Part shown: positions 38,643 through 52,125 of the stretch, piece after piece | Numbering within the stretch: the first letter of the stretch is position 1 | Layout: the number at the start of each line of letters is the position of its first letter | Assembly: GCF_054482525.1 (NCBI RefSeq) | Contig: NZ_CM137006.1 | Strand: one strand, 5' to 3' | Length of the DNA stretch: 64,000 nucleotides | Program-made: the position numbers and the translations under genes | The notes under the pieces: generated by a model | What the model was told of the DNA's origin: nothing | Seen by the model: only the letters and a program-made list of their open reading frames with translations | The model's database searches: none

Positions 38643-40658
38643 TTACAACACCTCGCGAACCGAGATCCCCAGCCGCTGCATTCGTGACAGCAGCGTGGTG
38701 CGCTTCATCCCTAATCGTGTCGCCGCGCCACGGGGCCCGGCAACAATGCCATTGGTTTCTCGCAATACCTGAACAATGCGCTGACGTTCTTCTTCGTCAT
38801 TCTCTGGCGTCGTCGGGTGCAGCAACTGCGCCATTGAACTGCGAAGCGCTGAATCTTCATTTAGCGTCGGCAGTAAACGGCTTTGTCGGACATTAAGATG
38901 TAAATTCAGACTGTTACCGCGAGTCAGTAGTACCGCTCGCTCAATCACGTTTTCCAGCTCGCGCACGTTGCCCGGCCAATCCCACGACATCAACTGGCGT
39001 AGTGCCTCGGTCGGGATGGCGTCAATTGCGCGATTCATATGGCGCGCCATTTTTTGCGTGAAATGCTTTGCTAAAAGAGGGATATCTTCCGGACGGTCGC
39101 GCAGTGGCGGCAGTTCCAGTGGGAAGACATTCAGGCGATAAAAGAGATCGCTGCGAAACTGGCGATCTTCAACCATTTGCCATAAATCACGGTTGGTGGC
39201 GGCAATGACTCTGACATTCACCGGGATCGTTCTACTCCCGCCGAGACGCTCAATCTCCCGCTCCTGCAATACGCGCAGCAGTTTAGGCTGAAGTTCTAAC
39301 GGCAGATCGCCAATTTCATCGAGAAACAACGTGCCGCCATCGGCAATTTCAAAACGTCCACGATGGGTATTAATCGCACCAGTAAACGCCCCTTTGTCAT
39401 GACCGAATAACTCACTTTCCAGAAGACTGGCGGGGATGGCAGCGCAGTTGATTTTGACCAGCGGCTTGTCGCGGCGCGGGCTAAGTTGATGGATCGCTCT
39501 GGCGATCACCTCTTTGCCGGTTCCGGTTTCACCGCAAATCAACACCGTACTGTCGCTCTTCGCCACAATATCTACCTGCTGGAGCAGGTCTTCCATTGCC
39601 TGGCTTTGATAGATAATGTCACCGACGCCCAGATTCGAAAGGAGCTGCTCGCTAAGCTGGTGGTTTTCTTGCTGCAAGCTTTCCTGCAAATCGGTCATGC
39701 TACGCCAGGCATCGGCATTGCCAACGGCAATAGCGATGCGATCGGCTATGTGTTGTAGTAGCTGGCAGTTTTCCTCACTAAAGAGAGTGGAGGAGGTATG
39801 CGCCAGCAACAATGCACCCGGTGTATGGTTGCCAAAGGTAAGCGGTATCAGGAGCGCAGATTCGCAGCCGTTAGATGCAAGTAAGAGTAATAATGGGTCG
39901 CGTTGCCAGAGAAACAGATCATCTGCACGGTGCGTCAAGGTCGGTTGTCGGGTTTGTAGCGTTTGTGTCAGCAATACACTTTCGCCAGGCATACAGCGTG
40001 GCAGACACGCACAATGTGAGGCAGAAAGATCGCTGCACCACAGGCTGAACTTCTCGTTCTTTCGATGATCGCCCAGTACCATACTGACTGAAGCCAGACC
40101 GAAAAAATGATGGATCTCACGGGCGACGTCAGCGATCAGATCGTCGAGATCAAGATGTGACAGCACTGCATTAGTAATATCAACCAGTACCCGATGATGA
40201 TCGCGATCTTTCTCCAGCAAACGCAGCGCCACCTGCTGTTCTTCATCATTGAGCCATGATTGCAGAACCGGGGTGATTATGTGTGCCAGCCAGTTAAACA
40301 GTGTGCAATCCTGAGGAGTAAAACGACTGCCGTGGGTGCGAATAAAGCGTAGCTCCGCCATTCCACTACTGCCGAGAAGGACGGCGTGGCGCGAATAATC
40401 GACCATCTCACCCTGATACTCTGTTGTTGCCGTCACATCGCTGCCATCATCATGGTAGCGGTAATAGAAGTTGCTTTTGAGAACATGCAGTTCAATAAGT
40501 TGTACCGGGCTGAACGGCGGCGGCAGCGGGATGAAGGCGCGTAATAAAGACGCCTTGCCGTGTTTCTGCGCTAACCGCTCCGCGAGCATTCCGTTTACCG
40601 CTTCAATTGTTATTCCTTGCGGCGGGGCAAACATCGCCTCGTCTGACATAGCCATCAA
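38643..40658 (-). CDS. hyfR: sigma54-dependent transcriptional activator HyfR
   Basis: 671 aa; AAA+ sigma54-interaction motifs ([14 protein letters not shown]), C-terminal helix-turn-helix. Confidence 0.9.
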
Positions 40659-42400: not shown

Positions 42401-44116
42401 TTACTTCAGCGGCGAACGGTTACGATCAATGCCGTAGCGTTCGATCTCTTTATACGGCACGGTTTTTGACTGGCGCTTGCGCACATCAACCAGCGTCACA
42501 CGGTCGGTACAGGAGTAGCAGGGATCAAGGCTACCGATAATTAGCGGTGCGTCAGAAACGGTATTGCCGCGCAGCATGTAACGCAGCACTGGCCAGTTGG
42601 CGTAGGTGGCGGCACGACAGCGCCAGCGGAACAATTTTTGGTTATCACCGAGCATGCTCCAGTGCACGTCTTCACCGCGTGGCGCTTCAACAAAGCCCAG
42701 CGCGAATGCGTGAGGTTTATAGCTAAAGCCTTCGGTCAGCAGTGGGGTATCCGGCATGTTGTCGAGAGCAAATTCCAGCATTGCCAGCGAATCAAACGTC
42801 TCTTTGACACGGACCATCACGCGGGAGAAGACATCGCCGCCGGTAAAGGTAAACAGCGTTTTGGGAATATTGCCGTAGTCGGCGTAGGGGTGATCAAAGC
42901 GCAAATCACGGGCAAAACCACTGCCGCGGATCAGCGGCCCTACGGGGCTATAATCACGGGCGATTTGTCGGTCGAGAATGCCAATGCCCTGAGTGCGTTG
43001 TTCCATATTCGGCGTGGCAAGCAGCATCTCTACCAGCTCCGACACGTCGGCGCGCATCTCGCGCACCAGTTTCAGCGTTTGCAGACGTTGCTCTTTGAGA
43101 ATATCGCGGCGAACACCACCAATCAGATTCAGACCGTAGGTTTTACGCGACCCGGTCAGCAATTCCGCCATCGTCATCGACTTTTCCCGCACGCGGAAAA
43201 ATTGCATAAAGCCGGTATCAAATCCAACAAAATGGCAGGAGAGGCCAAGGTTGAGCAAATGACTGTGCAGACGTTCGACTTCCAGCAGAATCGAGCGAAT
43301 AGTATGCGCTCGTTGCGGCACCTCAATCCCCAGTGCATTTTCAACCGAGTTGGTATAGGCCACACTGTGGGCAAAACCGCAAATCCCACACACGCGGTCG
43401 GATAAGAAGGTCACTTCGTTGTAGCCCATCCGCGTTTCTGCCAGTTTCTCCATGCCGCGATGGACATAAAACAGGCGGTAATCAGCATCGACAATTTGCT
43501 CGCCATCCACAAACAAGCGGAAGTGACCTGGTTCATCGGAGGTGATATGCAGCGGACCGACAGGGATCACCCGCGCATCGCTGTTGCCCTCGTTGATAAA
43601 CGGATACGTTTCGGTATCAGTCGTCGGTTCAGGGCGCAGTCGATAATCCATCGCGTCTTTGCGCAGCGGATGCATATCTTCCGGCCAGTCATCGGGCAAC
43701 ACCAGGCGACGCTGATCCGGCAGGCCAACCGGAATCAGCCCGTACATATCGCGAATTTCTCGCTCGCCCCAGACCGCGGCAGGGACGCGCGGTGTGACTG
43801 ACGGAAACTCCCGACTGTCGGCATCGACCAGAGCCTTCACCACGATCCAGCATTTTTCGGCCCCTTCCATAGAAAGGGCATAATAAACCGCGTAATGACC
43901 GTTAAGTGTCCGCTCGTCGTTGCCAAACAGGACTGGAAGCCAGCCATCATGTTGATAATAAAGATAATGTACAACGTCAGGCAGCAGATTGATTTTCACC
44001 GTAATGGTGACCTGTTCAGGCGTTTGTCGCTCTTCATCCAGCACCGCGCCGGGGAACTGCGTTTTCAGGGCGGCGAGAATCGCTTCGCCACGATTTGACG
44101 ATGAATTAACGTTCAC
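42401..44116 (-). CDS. hyfG: Hydrogenase-4 large subunit
   Basis: Track ORF extends to 44161; start chosen at GTG 44116 preceded by GGAG. C-terminal DPCYSCTDR motif. Confidence 0.85.
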
Positions 44117-45686
44117 TGTGTTTCTCCGAAACAGATGCGGTGCCTGAAGGCAAAAAATCATGCCAGGTGCTACGTTGTGCAGGCAGGTCGTGCGTCCCTG
44201 AGAGGACTATAGTGGAAGCGCCTGCCAGGATCCTGATGACAGGTTGTGGAATATGCGTTCCCATCGCCAGCATCATGACCAGCAGAATCACCATTGGCGA
44301 GGTGGTCAACCAGCCAAGTTCACCCCGGTTAACGGCCTGCGGCGGTTTCGCCATTAACACCCGCGCAGCCATCCGTACCAGGCCCGCCAGCACCAGCGTT
44401 AACAGCAATAACAGCAGGACGATAAGCAGCAGATGATTACGCGCCAGTCCGGCGGTAACGGTCATAAATTCGCTAAGAAAAATGTTGAAGGGCGGCATCC
44501 CGGCCAGCGCCAGCGCACCGCCGCCAAACAACACGGCGGTAAATGGCATGATTTTAAGCATTCCGCAGACGACGTTGAGATCGCGCGTGCCGTACTTGAG
44601 CAGTACATTGCCGGAACCGCAAAACAGCAGCGTTTTTGCCAGACTGTGGTTTAAGGTGTGCAGCAGAGCAGCAAAAATTCCCAGCGGCCCGCCAATGCCT
44701 AGCGCCACCGCGACCAGTCCCATGTTCTCCACGCTGGAGTACGCCAGCAGACGCTTAATGTCCCGCTGTACCAGAATGAAAAATGCCGCCACGGCAACCG
44801 ACAACATGCCGAAGATGAGCAACAACCGGTTGGGGAAATCGCTGCCGATGGCCTGGCAAATAATGATGTAATAGCGAATCAGCACCAACAGCGCGCAGTT
44901 CAGCAATACGGCGGAGAGCAGGGCGCTGACCGGACTCGGCGCTTCACTGTGAGCATCTGGCAGCCAGGCGTGCATGGGGAATAGCCCGGTTTTAGTGCCA
45001 AAGCCAATTAGCACAAACACAAAGGCCAACAGCATTAATGTTGGGTCAAGCAAGGACGATTGCTTAAGAACCTCGCTCCAGAATATCGCCATTTCTGCCT
45101 GCGGCATAACGCTGGCGGCGTTGGCGTATACCAGCACGGTACCGAACAGACCAAAAGCGACACCAACAGTACAAATAATGATGTACTTCCATGCAGCTTC
45201 CAGCGATGAACGCTGACCGTAAATGCCTACCAGAAACGCCGAGCTTAAGGTGGTGGCTTCGATTGCCGCCCACATCACAATCAGGTTATTGCTGGTAACA
45301 ACCAGCAGCATGGTGAACAAAAACAGATGGAAGAAACCGTAGTAATCGCACAGCGTAACGGGTGAAAGCTCGCCGTGTGCCACTTCATGACGCATGTAGC
45401 CAATCGAGTAAACACCGGTGAGAAAGCCAATCACACCAAGAATGGCGAGGAACAAACCGCCCAGACCATCAATATGAAGCCACAGTCCCGCAGCGAATAT
45501 TTCTCCTGCATCAGCGGCAGTTTGGACCACCCAGAGTGCCAGAATCAGCAGCAGTGTGATCCCTAAGCTATGTAATACAGTCACCGTACAAGTCGCAGAG
45601 AGCCCCCGTTTCCGGCAGGCAAAACAGAGCAGCGAAAAAAGCAGCGGCGTGAGCAGGAGTAAAGCGAACATCACAGAATAACTCAT
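44106..45686 (-). CDS. hyfF: Hydrogenase-4 membrane subunit F
   Basis: 526 aa polytopic antiporter-like protein. Confidence 0.9.
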
Positions 45687-47808: not shown

Positions 47809-48756
47809 TTACAGACCGGTTAACCAGAAGACCCAGGCAAGCGCAGCAAGGCTGAAGCCAAGCCAGGTCACATGGTGAATGAGTAAAAATCGCCCGCGTG
47901 CCAGCGTGTTTTCTGCGATTGAGGCCAGTACAAAAATCAGCAAAACCTTGAGCAGCGTAACGACAAGTGAAGTCAGCAGGCAGGCGAGAGAAAGTTCTTG
48001 CGCGCGCCCAAAGGGCAGAAACAGGGCCACAAACAGTGCTGCCATCACGACCTGTTTCAGCCCCAGCCCCCATTTCGCCAACGCCAGCCCGGCACCGGAA
48101 TATTCGGTCAGCGGGCCTTCTTGTAATTCCTGTTCTGCTTCAGCAACATCAAAGGGAATTTTTCCCATCTCAATGAAGCAGGCAAAACCACAGGCCAGTA
48201 ACGCCAGTACGGTGGTTAGCGGCGAGTTCCAGCCCGTCGCCAGCGTATTGCTGATCATCTCGATATGCGTGGAACCCGCTATCAGCGCCAATACCAGCAG
48301 TGAGAGAAGGAGCATGGGTTCGACCAGAATGCCGAGCGTCAACTCGCGACTGGCACCGACTCCCGCAAACGGGCTTCCGGTATCCAGCCCGGAAAGAGCA
48401 AAGAAAAAACGAAACAGGGCAAGAAGATAGATAAGGGTGATCAGATCGCCGCCGCCCGCAAAAGGGGAAACAGTAATAAATAGTGGCAGGGCCATCGCCA
48501 GCACCAGCATGCTGCTGATTAATACCCACGGCATCAGGCGGAACATCAGACCTGAAGATGTCGGCGCAACTTCCTGGCGTTTAAACAGTTTGTGGATATC
48601 GCGATAATCCTGCCAGATCCCCGGTCCGCGACGGGAGTGCATACGCGCGCGTATCTGCCGGGAAATCCCCGTAAAAAGCGGGGTTAGCGCCAGCAGAATC
48701 ACGGCCTGTGCTAACGCAAAAATGATCAGATATCCGTCGCAAAGAGTTTGTCTCAT
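47809..48756 (-). CDS. hyfC: Hydrogenase-4 membrane subunit C
   Basis: Track ORF to 48777; K-12 start MRQTLCDGY at 48756 (315 aa). Confidence 0.9.
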   Translation of the reverse strand: MRQTLCDGYLIIFALAQAVILLALTPLFTGISRQIRARMHSRRGPGIWQDYRDIHKLFKRQEVAPTSSGLMFRLMPWVLISSMLVLAMALPLFITVSPFAGGGDLITLIYLLALFRFFFALSGLDTGSPFAGVGASRELTLGILVEPMLLLSLLVLALIAGSTHIEMISNTLATGWNSPLTTVLALLACGFACFIEMGKIPFDVAEAEQELQEGPLTEYSGAGLALAKWGLGLKQVVMAALFVALFLPFGRAQELSLACLLTSLVVTLLKVLLIFVLASIAENTLARGRFLLIHHVTWLGFSLAALAWVFWLTGL

Positions 48757-48766
48757 GGTGATTTCC

Positions 48767-50785
48767 TTAGACGGCAATAGCGATTAGCAGCACAACCAGT
48801 GCGGCGACCACATACAGGCAATAGAGACGAAAGTCGCCGCTTTGCAGATGCTGTATTTCTTTGGCCAGCCGTTGGGTGGCGCTCACGATGGGGCGGATCA
48901 CCCGCTCATCCCAGAAGGGTTCTGTGCTCTGAGCCCTGGCGGTGACATGCGCAAGACCTTTGTTCAGCCTCAGCGTAGGGTCGAGCTGTTGTCGTAGACG
49001 AAATAGCGCACAAAAGACCACACGCAGCGGCTGCATCACGCCATTGCCTGACGGGGCCATCGCATTTTCCCAGCCGTAGCCGCATGCCCAGGCATCTCCT
49101 GTGCGACGAAACGCTGCGCGGCGCGAACGACACCACAGCCAGTAAAGGCCAGGCAGCAAAGGCATCGCCAGTAGTAACAGCAACAGTAATGAGGGAGTGA
49201 CCCGTGTATGAAACGTGCCGGGTACAAGTGCTATTCCGCTGGCGACAGTGACGGGAGGGGTATCGGTAAACGCATGGGCAATATGCATTATCTTCGGTGC
49301 CAGCCAACTGGCACTAAGCGCAATGAATACGCAGAGTGCCGCGAGCAGTAGCATGGCGACGATCATCGTATTTGGCACTTCCTGTGCCTCTTCAGCGTGT
49401 GTACTGCGCGGCGCTCCACAGAAAGTAATACCGTACATTTTGACGAAGCACATTACTGCCAGCCCACCAGTGACTGCCAGCATCACCATAGCAATAGGAC
49501 CCGCAAGTTGTAGCGCTACGGCTTCCACACGACTTAGTGAGAACAGCGACTGCCAGGTGTACCATTCGCTGATAAAACCATTCAGCGGAGGAATGGCTGA
49601 TATCGCGAGGCAACCAATCAGGCATGCTGCGGCTGTCCACGGCATACGTTTCGCCAGTGCCCCCATTTTTTCCATGTCGTGGGTATGCAAACGCGAAATA
49701 ATCGCACCCGCGCCGAGAAACAGCAGCCCTTTGAACAGCGCATGGTTGAGCAGATGAAACAGCGCGCCGAGCAGTCCAACAACGGTGAGCAGCGGGTCGT
49801 GCAGTGACAGACCGACCATCGCCACACCGACCGCCAGCAAAATAATGCCGACGTTTTCGACGGTACTCCAGGCCAGCAGCCGTTTGATATCCTGTTCCGC
49901 CAGCGCATACAGCACGCCCAGGAGCGCGGAGATTGCGCCGATCGCCATCACCAGAATGCCCCACCACAGCGGCAAACCCGTTTGCGCCAGCAGGTCCATC
50001 GCTACTTTCAGGATGCCGAAAATACCGATTTTGACCATTACGCCAGACATCAACGCCGAAGCGTGCGATGGTGCTGCAGGGTGAGCGCGTGGCAACCAGC
50101 TGTGCAACGGCATCATCCCGGCTTTCGCGCCAAAACCGAAGAAGGCCAGCAGGAACACCGCCGACGCCAGCCCCGGAGAAAGTGAAAGCGTGCGGAAACT
50201 GGCAAAATCGAGGCTGCCGCTTTCGCGCCCCATCAGCAAGAAGGCGATCATTATCAGCACCGATCCGGCGTGGGCGATAAAAAAGTAGAGCATGCCAGCG
50301 TTGATCGACGTTTTATCCTGCCTGGCAATGACCAGAAACCAGGAAGACAGCGACATCATTTCAAACAGCACGATGAACCAAAAAGCGTTGTCCATCACCA
50401 GCAGGGCAACCATCGATGCGATGAAAAGATTCATAAAGAAGCCCATCGCCGCCGCGCCTTTGCCCTCGTATTCGCGCATATAAGTCAATGAATAGAGAGA
50501 ACAAACCACCACCAGCAAGGAGATAACCAGCACCATAAATGCCGATAGGCTATCCATTCGTAGGGTTAAATCGGCAAAGTCAAAAGGCGTGGCAAAACGG
50601 GCGACTAAAGTTACGCCTGCATGTAATTGCGTAATTCCGCTGATGATGCCAATCACGCCACCCACCAGCGATGTGATGCCGGAAAGCTTAATAGCCAGTC
50701 TGTCCAGACCGAGTAAAAACAGCGAAACCAGACTGGCAAACAGATAGAGGATCAGCGACCAGGTTAATAATTGCAGGGCATCCAT
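48767..50785 (-). CDS. hyfB: Hydrogenase-4 membrane subunit B
   Basis: 672 aa. Confidence 0.9.
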   Translation of the reverse strand: MDALQLLTWSLILYLFASLVSLFLLGLDRLAIKLSGITSLVGGVIGIISGITQLHAGVTLVARFATPFDFADLTLRMDSLSAFMVLVISLLVVVCSLYSLTYMREYEGKGAAAMGFFMNLFIASMVALLVMDNAFWFIVLFEMMSLSSWFLVIARQDKTSINAGMLYFFIAHAGSVLIMIAFLLMGRESGSLDFASFRTLSLSPGLASAVFLLAFFGFGAKAGMMPLHSWLPRAHPAAPSHASALMSGVMVKIGIFGILKVAMDLLAQTGLPLWWGILVMAIGAISALLGVLYALAEQDIKRLLAWSTVENVGIILLAVGVAMVGLSLHDPLLTVVGLLGALFHLLNHALFKGLLFLGAGAIISRLHTHDMEKMGALAKRMPWTAAACLIGCLAISAIPPLNGFISEWYTWQSLFSLSRVEAVALQLAGPIAMVMLAVTGGLAVMCFVKMYGITFCGAPRSTHAEEAQEVPNTMIVAMLLLAALCVFIALSASWLAPKIMHIAHAFTDTPPVTVASGIALVPGTFHTRVTPSLLLLLLLAMPLLPGLYWLWCRSRRAAFRRTGDAWACGYGWENAMAPSGNGVMQPLRVVFCALFRLRQQLDPTLRLNKGLAHVTARAQSTEPFWDERVIRPIVSATQRLAKEIQHLQSGDFRLYCLYVVAALVVLLIAIAV

Positions 50786-51402
50786 TAGCGTTGCTCCTGA
50801 GTGAGGGAAAGGGGATCCTCCCCGCCATTGGCAAACCAGCTTGCGGCAAGGCGCTGTTTTTCTTTCATCTGACGTTGCAGGCTATCGTCGGTGATCAGCC
50901 GTAACGCCTGATTCGGGCAAGCGCGAACGCAGGCCGGACCTTCTGGCAAGAAATCACACAGGTCGCATTTCACCGCGACGGTCTGGACACCCGGTTCCCA
51001 GCGCAGCAAAGCATGTTGGGTCGGCGCGTTTACTTCTCCGTCTTTGAGTGAGCCCTCAGCCTGAAAAACATATTGCGCAGGGGCATTCACCGGACGGCTT
51101 CCTGAAGCGCTGATTGCGCCAAATGGGCAGACCACGGCACAAAGCTTGCAGCCTATACAGAGGCTTTCGTTGAGTTGGATCGCATCATCCCTCTGGGACA
51201 TGGCATTGACCGGGCAGACCTGCAGGCAAGGGGCTTCCTCACAGTGATGACACACGACAGGGGCAGTGAGTGTTGACGTCTTCGCCAGGGCCAGGCGCGG
51301 GTGTTGCTGTAAACCTTGCGTTTTATGCACGTCCGAACAGGCAGCGAGACAGGTATTACATCCTGTACACCACAGTGGTTCGGCCACCACAAAGCGGTTC
51401 AT
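50785..51402 (-). CDS. hyfA: Hydrogenase-4 ferredoxin subunit A
   Basis: Track ORF to 51441; K-12 start MNRFVVAEPLWCTGC at 51402 (205 aa). Confidence 0.9.
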   Translation of the reverse strand: MNRFVVAEPLWCTGCNTCLAACSDVHKTQGLQQHPRLALAKTSTLTAPVVCHHCEEAPCLQVCPVNAMSQRDDAIQLNESLCIGCKLCAVVCPFGAISASGSRPVNAPAQYVFQAEGSLKDGEVNAPTQHALLRWEPGVQTVAVKCDLCDFLPEGPACVRACPNQALRLITDDSLQRQMKEKQRLAASWFANGGEDPLSLTQEQR

Positions 51403-51442
51403 GTCGGCTCCTTGAAAATGATATGAAACATTGCATTTCATA

Positions 51443-51460
51443 TTGCATAAAGGATGCCAG
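51443..51460 (-). promoter_or_regulatory. Candidate sigma54 (-24/-12) promoter of the hyf operon
   Basis: Minus strand reads CTGGCATcctttATGCAA, close to TGGCAC-N5-TTGCA; ~40 nt upstream of hyfA start; HyfR is a sigma54 activator. Confidence 0.45.
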
Positions 51461-51654
51461 TCTGATTAATTTAATATATTCAATAAGTTATGTGTTAACT
51501 GGATTCTGAATGGTACAAAAATGATGGTCATTAACGTTCAGCAAAAAATGAATTCGACACCCGTGTCGCAGGGGAAAGCGAGAATGTGATCTTGATCACG
51601 AGAAGTGAGGTGTGCTGACCGCAAGCGCAGCCAGCACGGAATGGAGCAAAGTAA

Positions 51655-52125
51655 TCAGGCGTGTTCTTTCAGCCAGTTCAGCACAACGTCGTGGTGATTG
51701 CTGGTTTTGAAATCGTCAAAGACATGTTCGATTTTGCCATCAGCGTCAATCAGGAAGCTGATGCGATGAATACCATCGTAGGTTTTGCCCATGAAGGACT
51801 TTTCACCCCAGACGCCGAATTGTTCGCACACCTGGTGGTCCTCATCAGACAGGAGCGTAAAGTTAAGCAGCTCTTTTTCCGCAAAACGGGAGAGTTTTTC
51901 GGGTTTATCGGTGCTGATACCCAGCACATCAACGCCCGCTTTTTTCAACTCATCCATGTTATCGCGTAAGCCGCAGGCCTGTACGGTACAGCCGGGGGTC
52001 ATGGCTTTCGGGTAGAAATAAACCAGAACACGCTGTCCCTGGAAGTCGGTCAAATTAACTTGTTCTCCGTCTTGATCCGGCAAGCTAAATTTCGGTGCGA
52101 TATCACCGGCTTTCAGTGGATTCAT
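51655..52125 (-). CDS. bcp: Thiol peroxidase Bcp
   Basis: 156 aa, catalytic Cys region, synteny. Confidence 0.95.
   Translation of the reverse strand: MNPLKAGDIAPKFSLPDQDGEQVNLTDFQGQRVLVYFYPKAMTPGCTVQACGLRDNMDELKKAGVDVLGISTDKPEKLSRFAEKELLNFTLLSDEDHQVCEQFGVWGEKSFMGKTYDGIHRISFLIDADGKIEHVFDDFKTSNHHDVVLNWLKEHA

What the first reader, a model, noticed from the sequence alone, without database searches (positions are those of the whole stretch)
51402..51460. Candidate sigma54 promoter for the hyf operon; start codons of hyfA, hyfC and hyfG differ from the longest ORFs
A -24/-12-like element (CTGGCAT-N5-ATGCAA on the minus strand) lies ~40 nt upstream of the K-12-type hyfA start and would sit inside the coding region if the longer track ORF (to 51441) were used. 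hyfG and hyfC likewise have better-supported internal starts. This affects how the operon is annotated in this strain.
Basis: partly seen in the sequence, partly recalled or inferred. Interest (0 to 1): 0.25.

Follow-up and report, generated by a model that had tools for sequence, protein, structure and literature searches.

The report
Known sigma-54 promoter of hyf operon
The flagged motif is the already-characterised sigma-54 promoter of the E. coli hydrogenase-4 (hyf) operon, and the shorter, standard start codons of hyfA, hyfC and hyfG are the right ones, so the finding is correct but ordinary.

Summary
The motif is real: CTGGCATCCTTTATGCA at 51460-51444 (minus strand), with GG and GC at the canonical -24/-12 spacing. 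It is the known hyfA promoter of E. coli. K-12 has the same 17-mer except for its first base, binds sigma-54 there in ChIP-seq and gSELEX, and EcoCyc lists the promoter as experimentally confirmed. The predicted transcription start (51433/51432) lies 8-9 nt downstream of the long ORF's ATG (51441), so that ATG is not on the transcript. It also has no Shine-Dalgarno, is not conserved, and is separated from the real start by frame-breaking indels in relatives. HyfA starts at MNRF (ATG 51402) in nearly all of 43 loci from other genera. hyfC (ATG 48756) and hyfG (GTG 44116) are likewise supported, and RefSeq already uses all three starts in the identical strain PCN033. Comparison across genera adds a conserved enhancer-like dyad at -128 (51568-51555), also found upstream of fdhF and hydN. 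Verdict: observation confirmed, interpretation supported, already known, low interest. One side observation deserves follow-up. This strain has an intact 571-aa HyfG, whereas K-12 and about half of hyf-positive E. coli carry a 48-nt in-frame deletion. The deletion removes a universally conserved GPxxRGSG segment and may explain why K-12 hydrogenase-4 could never be activated.

The parts
51444..51460 (-). Sigma-54 core promoter (-24/-12 element) CTGGCATCCTTTATGCA; GG at 51458-57, GC at 51446-45
   Evidence: Sequence. Best sigma-54 matrix hit in the window, 14.9 bits, with hyfA left out of the matrix. K-12 counterpart ATGGCATCCTTTATGCA is ChIP-seq site OS23, flagged as confirmed in EcoCyc, and the top gSELEX peak. 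TGGCA and TGC are invariant in Citrobacter and Kosakonia.
51432..51433 (-). Predicted transcription start (+1), 30-31 nt upstream of the hyfA ATG
   Evidence: Motif centre 51452 minus 19 nt, by the rule of Bonocora 2015, which gives 31 nt for K-12 hyfA. A51432/A51431 are invariant in the seven-sequence spacer alignment. From my memory of the abstract of Skibinski 2002, which I could not read here, primer extension placed the start 30 bp upstream of hyfA.
51403..51431 (-). 5' untranslated leader with Shine-Dalgarno AAGGAG (51413-51408)
   Evidence: SD-antiSD duplex -7.7 kcal/mol, 4 nt from the ATG. CAAGGAGCC is conserved in Citrobacter and Kosakonia.
50785..51402 (-). hyfA coding sequence (205 aa, 4Fe-4S ferredoxin-type subunit), true start ATG 51402
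   Evidence: PGAP and K-12 annotation. HycB residue 1 aligns to this Met. 39 of 43 loci from other genera start MNRF at the aligned position. Pfam 4Fe-4S domains.
51439..51441 (-). Upstream in-frame ATG that creates the 218-aa 'long ORF'; not a start codon
   Evidence: No SD (-1.5 kcal/mol). Lies upstream of the predicted +1. Absent in Citrobacter; scattered 1-nt indels in Citrobacter and Kosakonia and a 5-nt duplication in E. coli GF4-3 break the frame between 51441 and 51402.
51555..51568 (-). Candidate enhancer (UAS) for HyfR/FhlA: perfect dyad CGACAC-GG-GTGTCG, centred at -128
   Evidence: Unique in the window, 0.12 expected. CGACAC..TGYCG is invariant in the alignment. The same CGWCR-N4-YGNCG architecture occurs at K-12 fdhF (-104), hydN (-94) and 17 of 19 hyf loci of other genera, against a chance rate of 0.9% per 250 nt. 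As an RNA hairpin it is no better than shuffles.
51585..51600 (-). CRP/FNR-like inverted repeat CGTGATCAAGATCACA, about -160
   Evidence: 9 of 10 matches to TGTGA-N6-TCACA. TGA..ATCACA is invariant and Citrobacter has the full TGTGA. The assignment to CRP is inferred.
51515..51530 (-). Conserved block TGACCATCATTTTTGT (-97 to -82), function not assigned
   Evidence: Invariant except one Y in E. coli, Citrobacter and Kosakonia. No match to IHF, CRP or FNR consensus.
51612..51637 (-). Probable bcp terminator hairpin that insulates hyf from bcp transcription
   Evidence: -20.2 kcal/mol, z = -4.8. Hairpins of different sequence sit at the same place in Citrobacter and Kosakonia. There is no U-run after it in E. 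coli, so its efficiency is uncertain.
47809..48756 (-). hyfC coding sequence from ATG 48756 (315 aa); the long ORF's TTG 48777 lies inside the end of hyfB
   Evidence: SD TAAGGA 6 nt upstream, -6.0 kcal/mol. PGAP and K-12 annotation. Citrobacter and Kosakonia have an ATG at the same position, and four of the five shown have no upstream alternative start.
42401..44116 (-). hyfG coding sequence from GTG 44116 (571 aa, intact allele); the long ORF's ATG 44161 lies inside hyfF
   Evidence: GGAGA-N6-GTG. PGAP and K-12 place the start at the same point, an 11-nt overlap with hyfF. The alignment to HycE begins 3-4 residues in. Enterobacterial orthologues have a GTG a few codons upstream of the aligned position; the E. 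coli ATG at -45 is not conserved. Finney 2019 states that E. coli hyfG initiates with GUG.
38643..40655 (-). hyfR, the operon's own sigma-54 enhancer-binding protein (670 aa)
   Evidence: Pfam GAF, Sigma54_activat and AAA lid domains. GAFTGA at residue 422 and 3 differences from K-12 HyfR.

Best explanation
The element at 51460-51444 (minus strand) is PhyfA, the sigma-54-dependent promoter of the hyfABCDEFGHIJ-hyfR-focB (hydrogenase-4 / formate hydrogenlyase-2) operon.

Proposed mechanism. RNA polymerase carrying sigma-54 binds the GG (-24) and GC (-12) doublets as a closed complex. An enhancer-binding AAA+ activator then binds upstream. This is HyfR, encoded in the operon, and/or its paralogue FhlA. 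The most likely binding site is the conserved dyad CGACAC-GG-GTGTCG centred at -128. The activator contacts the polymerase by looping the AT-rich spacer and uses ATP hydrolysis to open the promoter. Transcription starts at about A51432, giving a 30-nt leader whose AAGGAG directs translation of HyfA from ATG 51402.

The in-frame ATG at 51441 lies between the -12 box and +1. It is not on the mRNA and is not a start codon. hyfC starts at ATG 48756 and hyfG at GTG 44116; the longer ORFs are accidents of upstream in-frame sequence inside the preceding genes.

Shown here: the sequence features, their conservation, the annotation, and an intact HyfR. Taken from the literature on K-12: sigma-54 binding and the status of confirmed promoter. 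Inferred: which activator uses the dyad, the looping, and the role of the CRP-like site.
For: (1) Sequence and spacing. It is the best sigma-54 matrix hit in the window with hyfA left out of the matrix.
(2) From TGGCAT to the hyfA ATG the window is identical to K-12. 3,734 of 4,297 hyf-positive E. coli genomes are 100% identical over those 60 nt.
(3) In K-12 this site is sigma-54 ChIP-seq peak OS23, with a predicted TSS 31 nt from hyfA and the flag 'experimentally confirmed in EcoCyc'. It is also the strongest RpoN-holoenzyme gSELEX peak, at 92-100%.
(4) Across genera, hyf-type loci of Citrobacter, Kosakonia, Atlantibacter, Sodalis, Dickeya, Morganella and Providencia carry TGGCA-N7-TGC with a predicted TSS 28-73 nt upstream of hyfA. 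Pectobacterium has a weaker TGGTA variant. hyc-type loci, where the homologue is an internal gene, do not carry one.
(5) The alignment shows TGGCA, TGC and the +1 AA invariant while neighbouring bases vary.
(6) The enhancer dyad is conserved and shared with fdhF and hydN. HyfR is intact and has GAFTGA.
(7) In Proteus mirabilis the hyf promoter was studied by reporter assays in fhlA and rpoN mutants, and RpoN and FhlA sites were predicted upstream.
(8) Start codons: SD strengths, PGAP and K-12 annotation, paralogue alignments, orthologue starts, frame-breaking indels, and the GUG statement in Finney 2019.
(9) No sigma-70-like promoter in the spacer, and a strong hairpin after bcp.
Against: No transcript or protein data exist for this strain. 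The primary mapping paper (Skibinski 2002) could not be read here, so the '30 bp' primer-extension figure rests on my memory of its abstract plus the EcoCyc flag quoted. The motif has three mismatches to the strict consensus and is not significant on its own. The dyad pattern was derived partly from the sequences in which it was then counted, so only the more distant genera are an independent test. A few distant hyf loci (alpha- and beta-proteobacterial) lack a good sigma-54 hit. Which activator, HyfR or FhlA, binds the dyad is not resolved.
Confidence: 0.93

Rival explanations
1. The 218-aa long ORF is the real HyfA in this strain. It would be translated from ATG 51441 on a transcript that starts further upstream, and the -24/-12 match would be a chance motif next to the start codon.
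For: The ORF is open from 51441. Motif matches of this quality are common by chance at the 64-kb scale.
Against: No SD before 51441 (-1.5 against -7.7 kcal/mol). HycB and nearly all orthologues start at the MNRF Met. The ATG is absent in Citrobacter, and the 39-nt interval carries 1-nt indels in relatives and a 5-nt duplication in an E. coli strain whose hyfA is still annotated at 618 nt. No sigma-70-like promoter upstream. A strong hairpin follows bcp. Sigma-54 binding to this site is published.
Confidence: 0.02
2. The site binds sigma-54 holoenzyme but is a poised, essentially silent site. Any hyf expression would come from read-through from bcp or from an unrecognised sigma-70 promoter.
For: Bonocora 2015 stress that sigma-54 typically binds in a transcriptionally inactive state. 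The literature describes hyf as poorly expressed or 'silent'. The bcp hairpin has no U-run.
Against: EcoCyc lists the promoter as experimentally confirmed. The title of Skibinski 2002 names sigma-54-dependent activators. The promoter, the +1 position and an upstream dyad are co-conserved across genera, including genera with an active FHL-2. No sigma-70-like site.
Confidence: 0.04
3. The dyad CGACACGGGTGTCG followed by a T-run is the intrinsic terminator of bcp, not an enhancer.
For: The consensus scan flags it as terminator-like: a 5-bp stem followed by AATTCATTTT.
Against: The hairpin is weak and no better than shuffles (-4.9 kcal/mol, z = 0.24). In Citrobacter and Kosakonia the T to C change breaks the stem and the T-run is missing, yet the half-sites stay conserved. 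A much stronger hairpin lies directly after bcp. The same dyad architecture sits upstream of fdhF, hydN and hyf operons that have no bcp neighbour.
Confidence: 0.05

Closest known systems
PhyfA of E. coli K-12 (hyfA promoter; Skibinski et al. 2002, J Bacteriol 184:6642; EcoCyc; Bonocora 2015 site OS23)
   Same: Orthologous site. The sequence is identical from TGGCAT through the hyfA ATG, with the same spacer architecture, dyad, CRP-like site and conserved block.
   Different: One base at the 5' flank of the -24 box (C here, A in K-12) raises the matrix score from 13.2 to 14.9. There are seven further substitutions upstream in the spacer. At least 671 genomes are >=99% identical to the window over the 76 nt that include this base. 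No functional consequence is known.
Other formate-regulon sigma-54 promoters of E. coli (fdhF, hycA, hypA, hydN; FhlA-dependent)
   Same: -24/-12 promoters. fdhF and hycA share the ATGC form of the -12 box (GTGGCATAAAAGATGCA, TTGGCACAAAAAATGCT). TGTCG/CGACA-type dyads lie about 90-130 nt upstream.
   Different: hyf has a single clear dyad, not the cluster of repeats seen between hycA and hypA. It additionally encodes its own activator, HyfR.
hyf promoter of Proteus mirabilis (Lin et al. 2020, PMC7658346)
   Same: An FHL-2-type hyf operon with predicted RpoN and FhlA sites upstream, studied by reporter assays in fhlA and rpoN mutants. Related Morganellaceae loci show TGGCA-N7-TGCT and a dyad at -83 to -96.
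   Different: Different spacer sequences and distances (TSS to start about 44-46 nt). No bcp synteny and no hyfR in the operon.

Membership tests
Sigma-54 (RpoN) -24/-12 promoter | GG and GC doublets exactly 10 bp apart within TGGCAC-N5-TTGCW-like boxes | tested here: met
   TGGCAT-N5-ATGCA, GG 51458-57 and GC 51446-45. Three mismatches to the strict consensus. Matrix score 14.9, within the range of validated sites (8.6 to a median of 16.8).
Sigma-54 (RpoN) -24/-12 promoter | Intergenic, oriented towards a downstream gene, with the start site a short distance upstream of that gene | tested here: met
   In the 252-nt bcp-hyfA spacer on the sense strand, with the predicted +1 31 nt from ATG 51402. 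0.002 expected by chance.
Sigma-54 (RpoN) -24/-12 promoter | Physical binding of sigma-54 holoenzyme | not testable with these tools
   Published for the K-12 site with an identical core: ChIP-seq OS23 (FAT 16) and the top gSELEX peak.
Sigma-54 (RpoN) -24/-12 promoter | Dependence on an enhancer-binding AAA+ activator with GAFTGA and an upstream activating sequence | tested here: met
   HyfR is intact with Sigma54_activat and GAFTGA. A conserved dyad lies at -128 and is shared with fdhF and hydN. Binding itself was not tested.
Sigma-54 (RpoN) -24/-12 promoter | rpoN-dependent transcription from a mapped start about 12 nt downstream of the GC | not testable with these tools
   EcoCyc 'experimentally confirmed' flag quoted in Bonocora 2015. 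Skibinski 2002 is not held. No data exist for this strain.
Sigma-54 (RpoN) -24/-12 promoter | Conservation of the boxes in orthologous promoters | tested here: met
   TGGCA/TGC invariant in E. coli, Citrobacter and Kosakonia. Present in most enterobacterial hyf loci and absent upstream of internal hycB genes. 87% of hyf-positive E. coli are identical over the 60 nt.
N-terminally extended HyfA (218-aa long ORF) | Ribosome-binding site, conservation of the extension, and inclusion in the transcript | tested here: not met
   No SD. The extension is not conserved and is broken by frame-shifting indels. The ATG lies upstream of the predicted +1.
Longest-ORF starts of hyfC (TTG 48777) and hyfG (ATG 44161) | RBS, conservation in orthologues, agreement with paralogues | tested here: not met
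   Both lie inside the preceding gene, with a weak or mis-spaced SD. The TTG recurs in only one other locus and the ATG in none at that position. Alignments to HycD and HycE do not cover the extensions.

The most novel reading that the evidence does not exclude
The promoter itself is not new, but the operon it drives may be. This window carries the ancestral, intact hyf operon, with a 571-aa HyfG. K-12 is the strain in which hydrogenase-4 has been studied for over 25 years and found 'silent' or impossible to activate. K-12 and about 49% of hyf-positive E. coli genomes carry a 48-nt in-frame deletion between two 10-bp direct repeats. The deletion removes [16 protein letters not shown], a segment that is gap-free in every HyfG/HycE homologue recovered here, in the Pyrococcus membrane-bound hydrogenase (MbhL) and in the complex I 49-kDa subunits. 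If the deletion inactivates the enzyme, the inactivity of E. coli Hyd-4 would be an allele-specific defect and not a property of the species. In strains like this one the sigma-54 promoter would then drive a functional formate hydrogenlyase-2.
Probability: 0.25. Interest if true: 0.6.

Novelty: already known. Interest (0 to 1): 0.1.

Why it matters
For the finding as given, very little. It re-identifies a promoter mapped in 2002 and re-confirmed by ChIP-seq and gSELEX, and start codons that RefSeq already annotates correctly. Its practical value is as a reminder that longest-ORF tracks over-extend hyfA, hyfC, hyfG and hyfR.

The comparative work adds a modest refinement. It gives a cross-genus footprint of the hyf control region: the -24/-12 boxes, +1, a dyad enhancer at -128 shared with fdhF and hydN, a CRP-like site, and one unassigned conserved block.

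The side observation on hyfG could matter more. It offers a simple, directly testable explanation for the failure of all attempts to obtain hydrogenase-4 activity from K-12.

Tried and rejected
- **Papers not held.** Skibinski 2002, Self 2004 and Lindenstrauss & Pinske 2019 could not be read. The primer-extension result and the reported CRP dependence are therefore cited from memory or through secondary sources only. A search for accessible text describing the mapped start found nothing.
- **Strict consensus search.** At <=2 mismatches it does not recover the site and finds fewer hits than chance, so consensus matching alone is uninformative.
- **Rfam scan of the spacer.** Only a sub-threshold plant miRNA hit, dismissed as chance.
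- **IHF, FNR and exact CRP consensus searches in the spacer.** No IHF or FNR match. Only a 9/10 CRP-like site.
- **Terminator reading of the dyad.** Considered and rejected.
- **Genome scan.** It returned no Escherichia or Shigella locus, so within-genus comparison relied on the E. coli genome collection instead.
- **Literature searches for the hyfG deletion.** No paper in the held library mentions it. That does not prove it is unreported.
- **Structure prediction of the two HyfG alleles.** Not run, because the tool returns no contact information that would decide the question.

Full report
**1. What is at the coordinates**

Read on the minus strand, the window has CTGGCAT (51460-51454), CCTTT, and ATGCAA (51448-51443). 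After one base comes the ATG (51441) that opens the 218-aa long ORF. Thirty-nine nucleotides further on lies ATG 51402, preceded by AAGGAG (51413-51408). The GG and GC doublets (51458-57 and 51446-45) have the canonical sigma-54 spacing.

One detail of the finding is wrong. The element is not inside the long ORF; it ends one base before that ORF's ATG. What would fall inside the long ORF is the transcription start.

**2. Chance**

The motif alone is not significant.
- The relaxed pattern is expected 0.69 times per window.
- The site has three mismatches to the strict consensus, and <=2-mismatch matches are no more frequent than in shuffles (11 found, 16 expected).
- I built a matrix from 25 published sigma-54 ChIP-seq motifs, leaving hyfA out. 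The site scores 14.9 bits and is the best hit on either strand of the window. But about 71% of random 64-kb sequences contain a hit at least that good.

The context is what is non-random. Only 0.002 such hits are expected in the 252-nt bcp-hyfA spacer on the sense strand.

**3. Identity**

The window is 100% identical here to E. coli PCN033. The genes are bcp, then hyfABCDEFGHIJ-hyfR-focB.

From TGGCAT to the hyfA ATG the sequence is identical to K-12 MG1655. The only nearby difference is the base 5' of TGGCAT, which is C here and A in K-12.

Published data for K-12:
- Bonocora et al. 2015 list ATGGCATCCTTTATGCA as sigma-54 ChIP-seq peak OS23. The predicted start is 31 nt upstream of hyfA, and the site carries the flag 'experimentally confirmed in EcoCyc'.
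- Shimada et al. 2021 found the bcp/hyfA spacer to be the strongest RpoN-holoenzyme gSELEX peak, at 92% and 100%.
- The original study (Skibinski et al. 2002, whose title names the sigma-54-dependent activators FhlA and HyfR) is not held. From my memory of its abstract, primer extension placed the start 30 bp upstream of hyfA.

Transferred to the window, +1 is at 51433/51432. This is therefore the known hyfA promoter.

**4. Independent comparative evidence**

A scan of species-representative genomes with HyfA returned 45 loci. Seven are hyc-type, where the homologue hycB is an internal gene.
- Nearly all enterobacterial hyf loci carry TGGCA-N7-TGC with a predicted start 28-73 nt upstream of hyfA. 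The hyc-type controls do not.
- I aligned the syntenic bcp-hyfA spacers of E. coli, Citrobacter and Kosakonia. TGGCA, TGC, an AA doublet at 51432/31 and the Shine-Dalgarno are invariant, while neighbouring bases vary.
- Within E. coli, 3,734 of 4,297 hyf-positive genomes are identical over the 60 nt from TGGCAT to the ATG. Rare variants include a 14-nt duplication in the promoter and a 5-nt duplication in the leader.

**5. Upstream elements**

The alignment reveals three further conserved blocks.
- **A perfect dyad, CGACAC-GG-GTGTCG (51568-51555), centred at -128.**
  - It is unique in the window, with 0.12 expected.
  - The same CGWCR-N4-YGNCG architecture lies at -104 of K-12 fdhF and -94 of hydN. 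It also lies between -83 and -159 in 17 of 19 hyf loci of other genera. Chance is 0.9% per 250 nt.
  - The pattern was partly derived from these sequences, so only the distant genera are an independent test.
  - A terminator reading is rejected. The hairpin is no better than shuffles, the stem and the T-run are lost in relatives while the half-sites persist, and a much stronger hairpin (-20.2 kcal/mol, z = -4.8) follows bcp directly.
- **A CRP/FNR-like repeat, CGTGATCAAGATCACA (51600-51585)**.
- **An unassigned block, TGACCATCATTTTTGT (51530-51515).**

HyfR is intact, with GAF and sigma-54-interaction domains and GAFTGA. No sigma-70-like promoter is found in the spacer.

**6. Start codons**

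- **hyfA, ATG 51402.**
  - It has a strong, well-spaced SD (-7.7 kcal/mol), whereas ATG 51441 has none (-1.5).
  - HycB residue 1 aligns to the MNRF Met.
  - 39 of the 43 loci analysed start MNRF at the aligned position, and many have an in-frame stop 1-10 codons upstream with no alternative start.
  - The upstream ATG is absent in Citrobacter. The 39-nt interval carries scattered 1-nt indels in relatives and a 5-nt duplication in an E. coli strain whose hyfA is still annotated at 618 nt.
  - The upstream ATG also lies upstream of +1.
- **hyfC, ATG 48756.** It follows TAAGGA. The TTG at 48777 lies inside the end of hyfB and recurs in only one other locus.
- **hyfG, GTG 44116.**
  - It follows GGAGA and overlaps hyfF by 11 nt, as in K-12.
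  - Enterobacterial orthologues have a GTG a few codons upstream of the aligned position.
  - Finney et al. 2019 state that E. coli hyfG initiates with GUG.
  - The ATG at 44161 is not conserved.
- **Annotation.** RefSeq/PGAP already uses all three starts in PCN033, so there is no annotation issue.

**7. Verdict on the finding**

It is already known, and interest is low.

**8. Noticed in passing: a hyfG polymorphism**

- **The indel.** K-12 HyfG is 555 aa and this strain's is 571 aa. The starts and ends are the same, and K-12 lacks [16 protein letters not shown]. In the DNA the 48 nt (window 42961-42914) lie between two 10-bp direct repeats, GCCCGTGATT.
- **Frequency.** Of 4,292 E. coli genomes with hyfG, 2,179 have the segment. 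The rest match only to the junction. A junction query splits a spread sample about evenly. Deletion carriers include K-12 derivatives, O45:H2, O111:H8 and wild isolates such as the swine strain SCZE5. O157:H7 and this strain are intact.
- **Conservation.** The segment is gap-free in all 43 loci that returned a HyfG/HycE match. It aligns to HycE in the solved formate hydrogenlyase structure 7Z0S, to Pyrococcus MbhL, and to complex I 49-kDa subunits up to mitochondrial NDUFS2, as the GPxxRGSG motif.
- **Relevance.** Finney et al. 2020 built 15 K-12 strains with Phyc or PT5 promoters and HyfG-HycE C-terminal fusions. The fusions used hyfG nt 1-1569, which is the deleted allele. [quoted passage not shown]
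- **Literature.** No paper in the held library links hyfG to this deletion. Several key papers could not be read. I cannot say it is unreported, but it is a cheap and decisive experiment.

Noticed in passing
window 42914-42961 (minus strand, inside hyfG); K-12 locus L002 about 9640: This strain has an intact 571-aa HyfG. K-12 and about 49% of hyf-positive complete E. coli genomes carry a 48-nt in-frame deletion between 10-bp direct repeats (GCCCGTGATT). It removes [16 protein letters not shown], a GPxxRGSG segment that is gap-free in the 43 HyfG/HycE homologues recovered here, in Pyrococcus MbhL and in complex I 49-kDa subunits. All published attempts I could read to activate K-12 Hyd-4 used the deleted allele and failed.
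   Followed up: partly
window 51515-51530 (minus strand): The 16-nt block TGACCATCAYTTTTGT is invariant in the E. coli, Citrobacter and Kosakonia spacers, at -97 to -82 between the dyad and the -24 box. It matches no IHF, CRP or FNR consensus, and its function is unassigned.
   Followed up: partly
window 51585-51600 (minus strand): A CRP/FNR-like inverted repeat, CGTGATCAAGATCACA, at about -160. It is conserved, with a perfect TGTGA half-site in Citrobacter.
   Followed up: partly
window 51460: The base 5' of the -24 TGGCAT is C here and A in K-12. C is closer to the sigma-54 consensus (matrix score 14.9 against 13.2). At least 671 genomes are >=99% identical to the window over the 76 nt that include it.
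   Followed up: partly
window about 51600-51700; E. coli genome collection: About 1,127 of 5,424 E. coli genomes (for example ST131 strains) match only the first 95-100 nt of the query, which is the end of bcp. They lack the hyf promoter and operon altogether.
   Followed up: no
L052 (strain Res13-Lact-PEB14-36), L054 (strain GF4-3), L053 (strain 140): Rare natural variants of the hyf promoter and leader: a 14-nt tandem duplication inside the -24/-12 element, a 5-nt duplication (AATGC) in the leader, and an A to T change just after the -12 TGCA.
   Followed up: partly
window 44626-44642 and 38818-38834 (minus strand): Secondary sigma-54 matrix hits in the sense orientation inside hyfF (CTGGCAAAAACGCTGCT, 13.6) and near the 3' end of hyfR about 200 nt upstream of focB (ATGGCGCAGTTGCTGCA, 12.1). 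Only the hyfA site appears in the main text of Bonocora 2015, and scores like these are common by chance.
   Followed up: no
window 51612-51637 (minus strand): A strong hairpin directly after the bcp stop (-20.2 kcal/mol, z = -4.8), with structural counterparts of different sequence in Citrobacter and Kosakonia. It is the probable bcp terminator, although no U-run follows it in E. coli.
   Followed up: partly
window 40655-40658: hyfR shows the same longest-ORF artefact. A TTG one codon upstream of the annotated ATG gives 671 aa instead of 670 aa.
   Followed up: yes
L013 (record titled Citrobacter freundii M-21): Its hyf locus, promoter (TTGGCACACTTCCTGCT, start 73 nt upstream) and HyfA N-terminus group with the Atlantibacter loci L010-L012 and not with the other Citrobacter loci. 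This suggests a mislabelled genome or horizontal acquisition.
   Followed up: no
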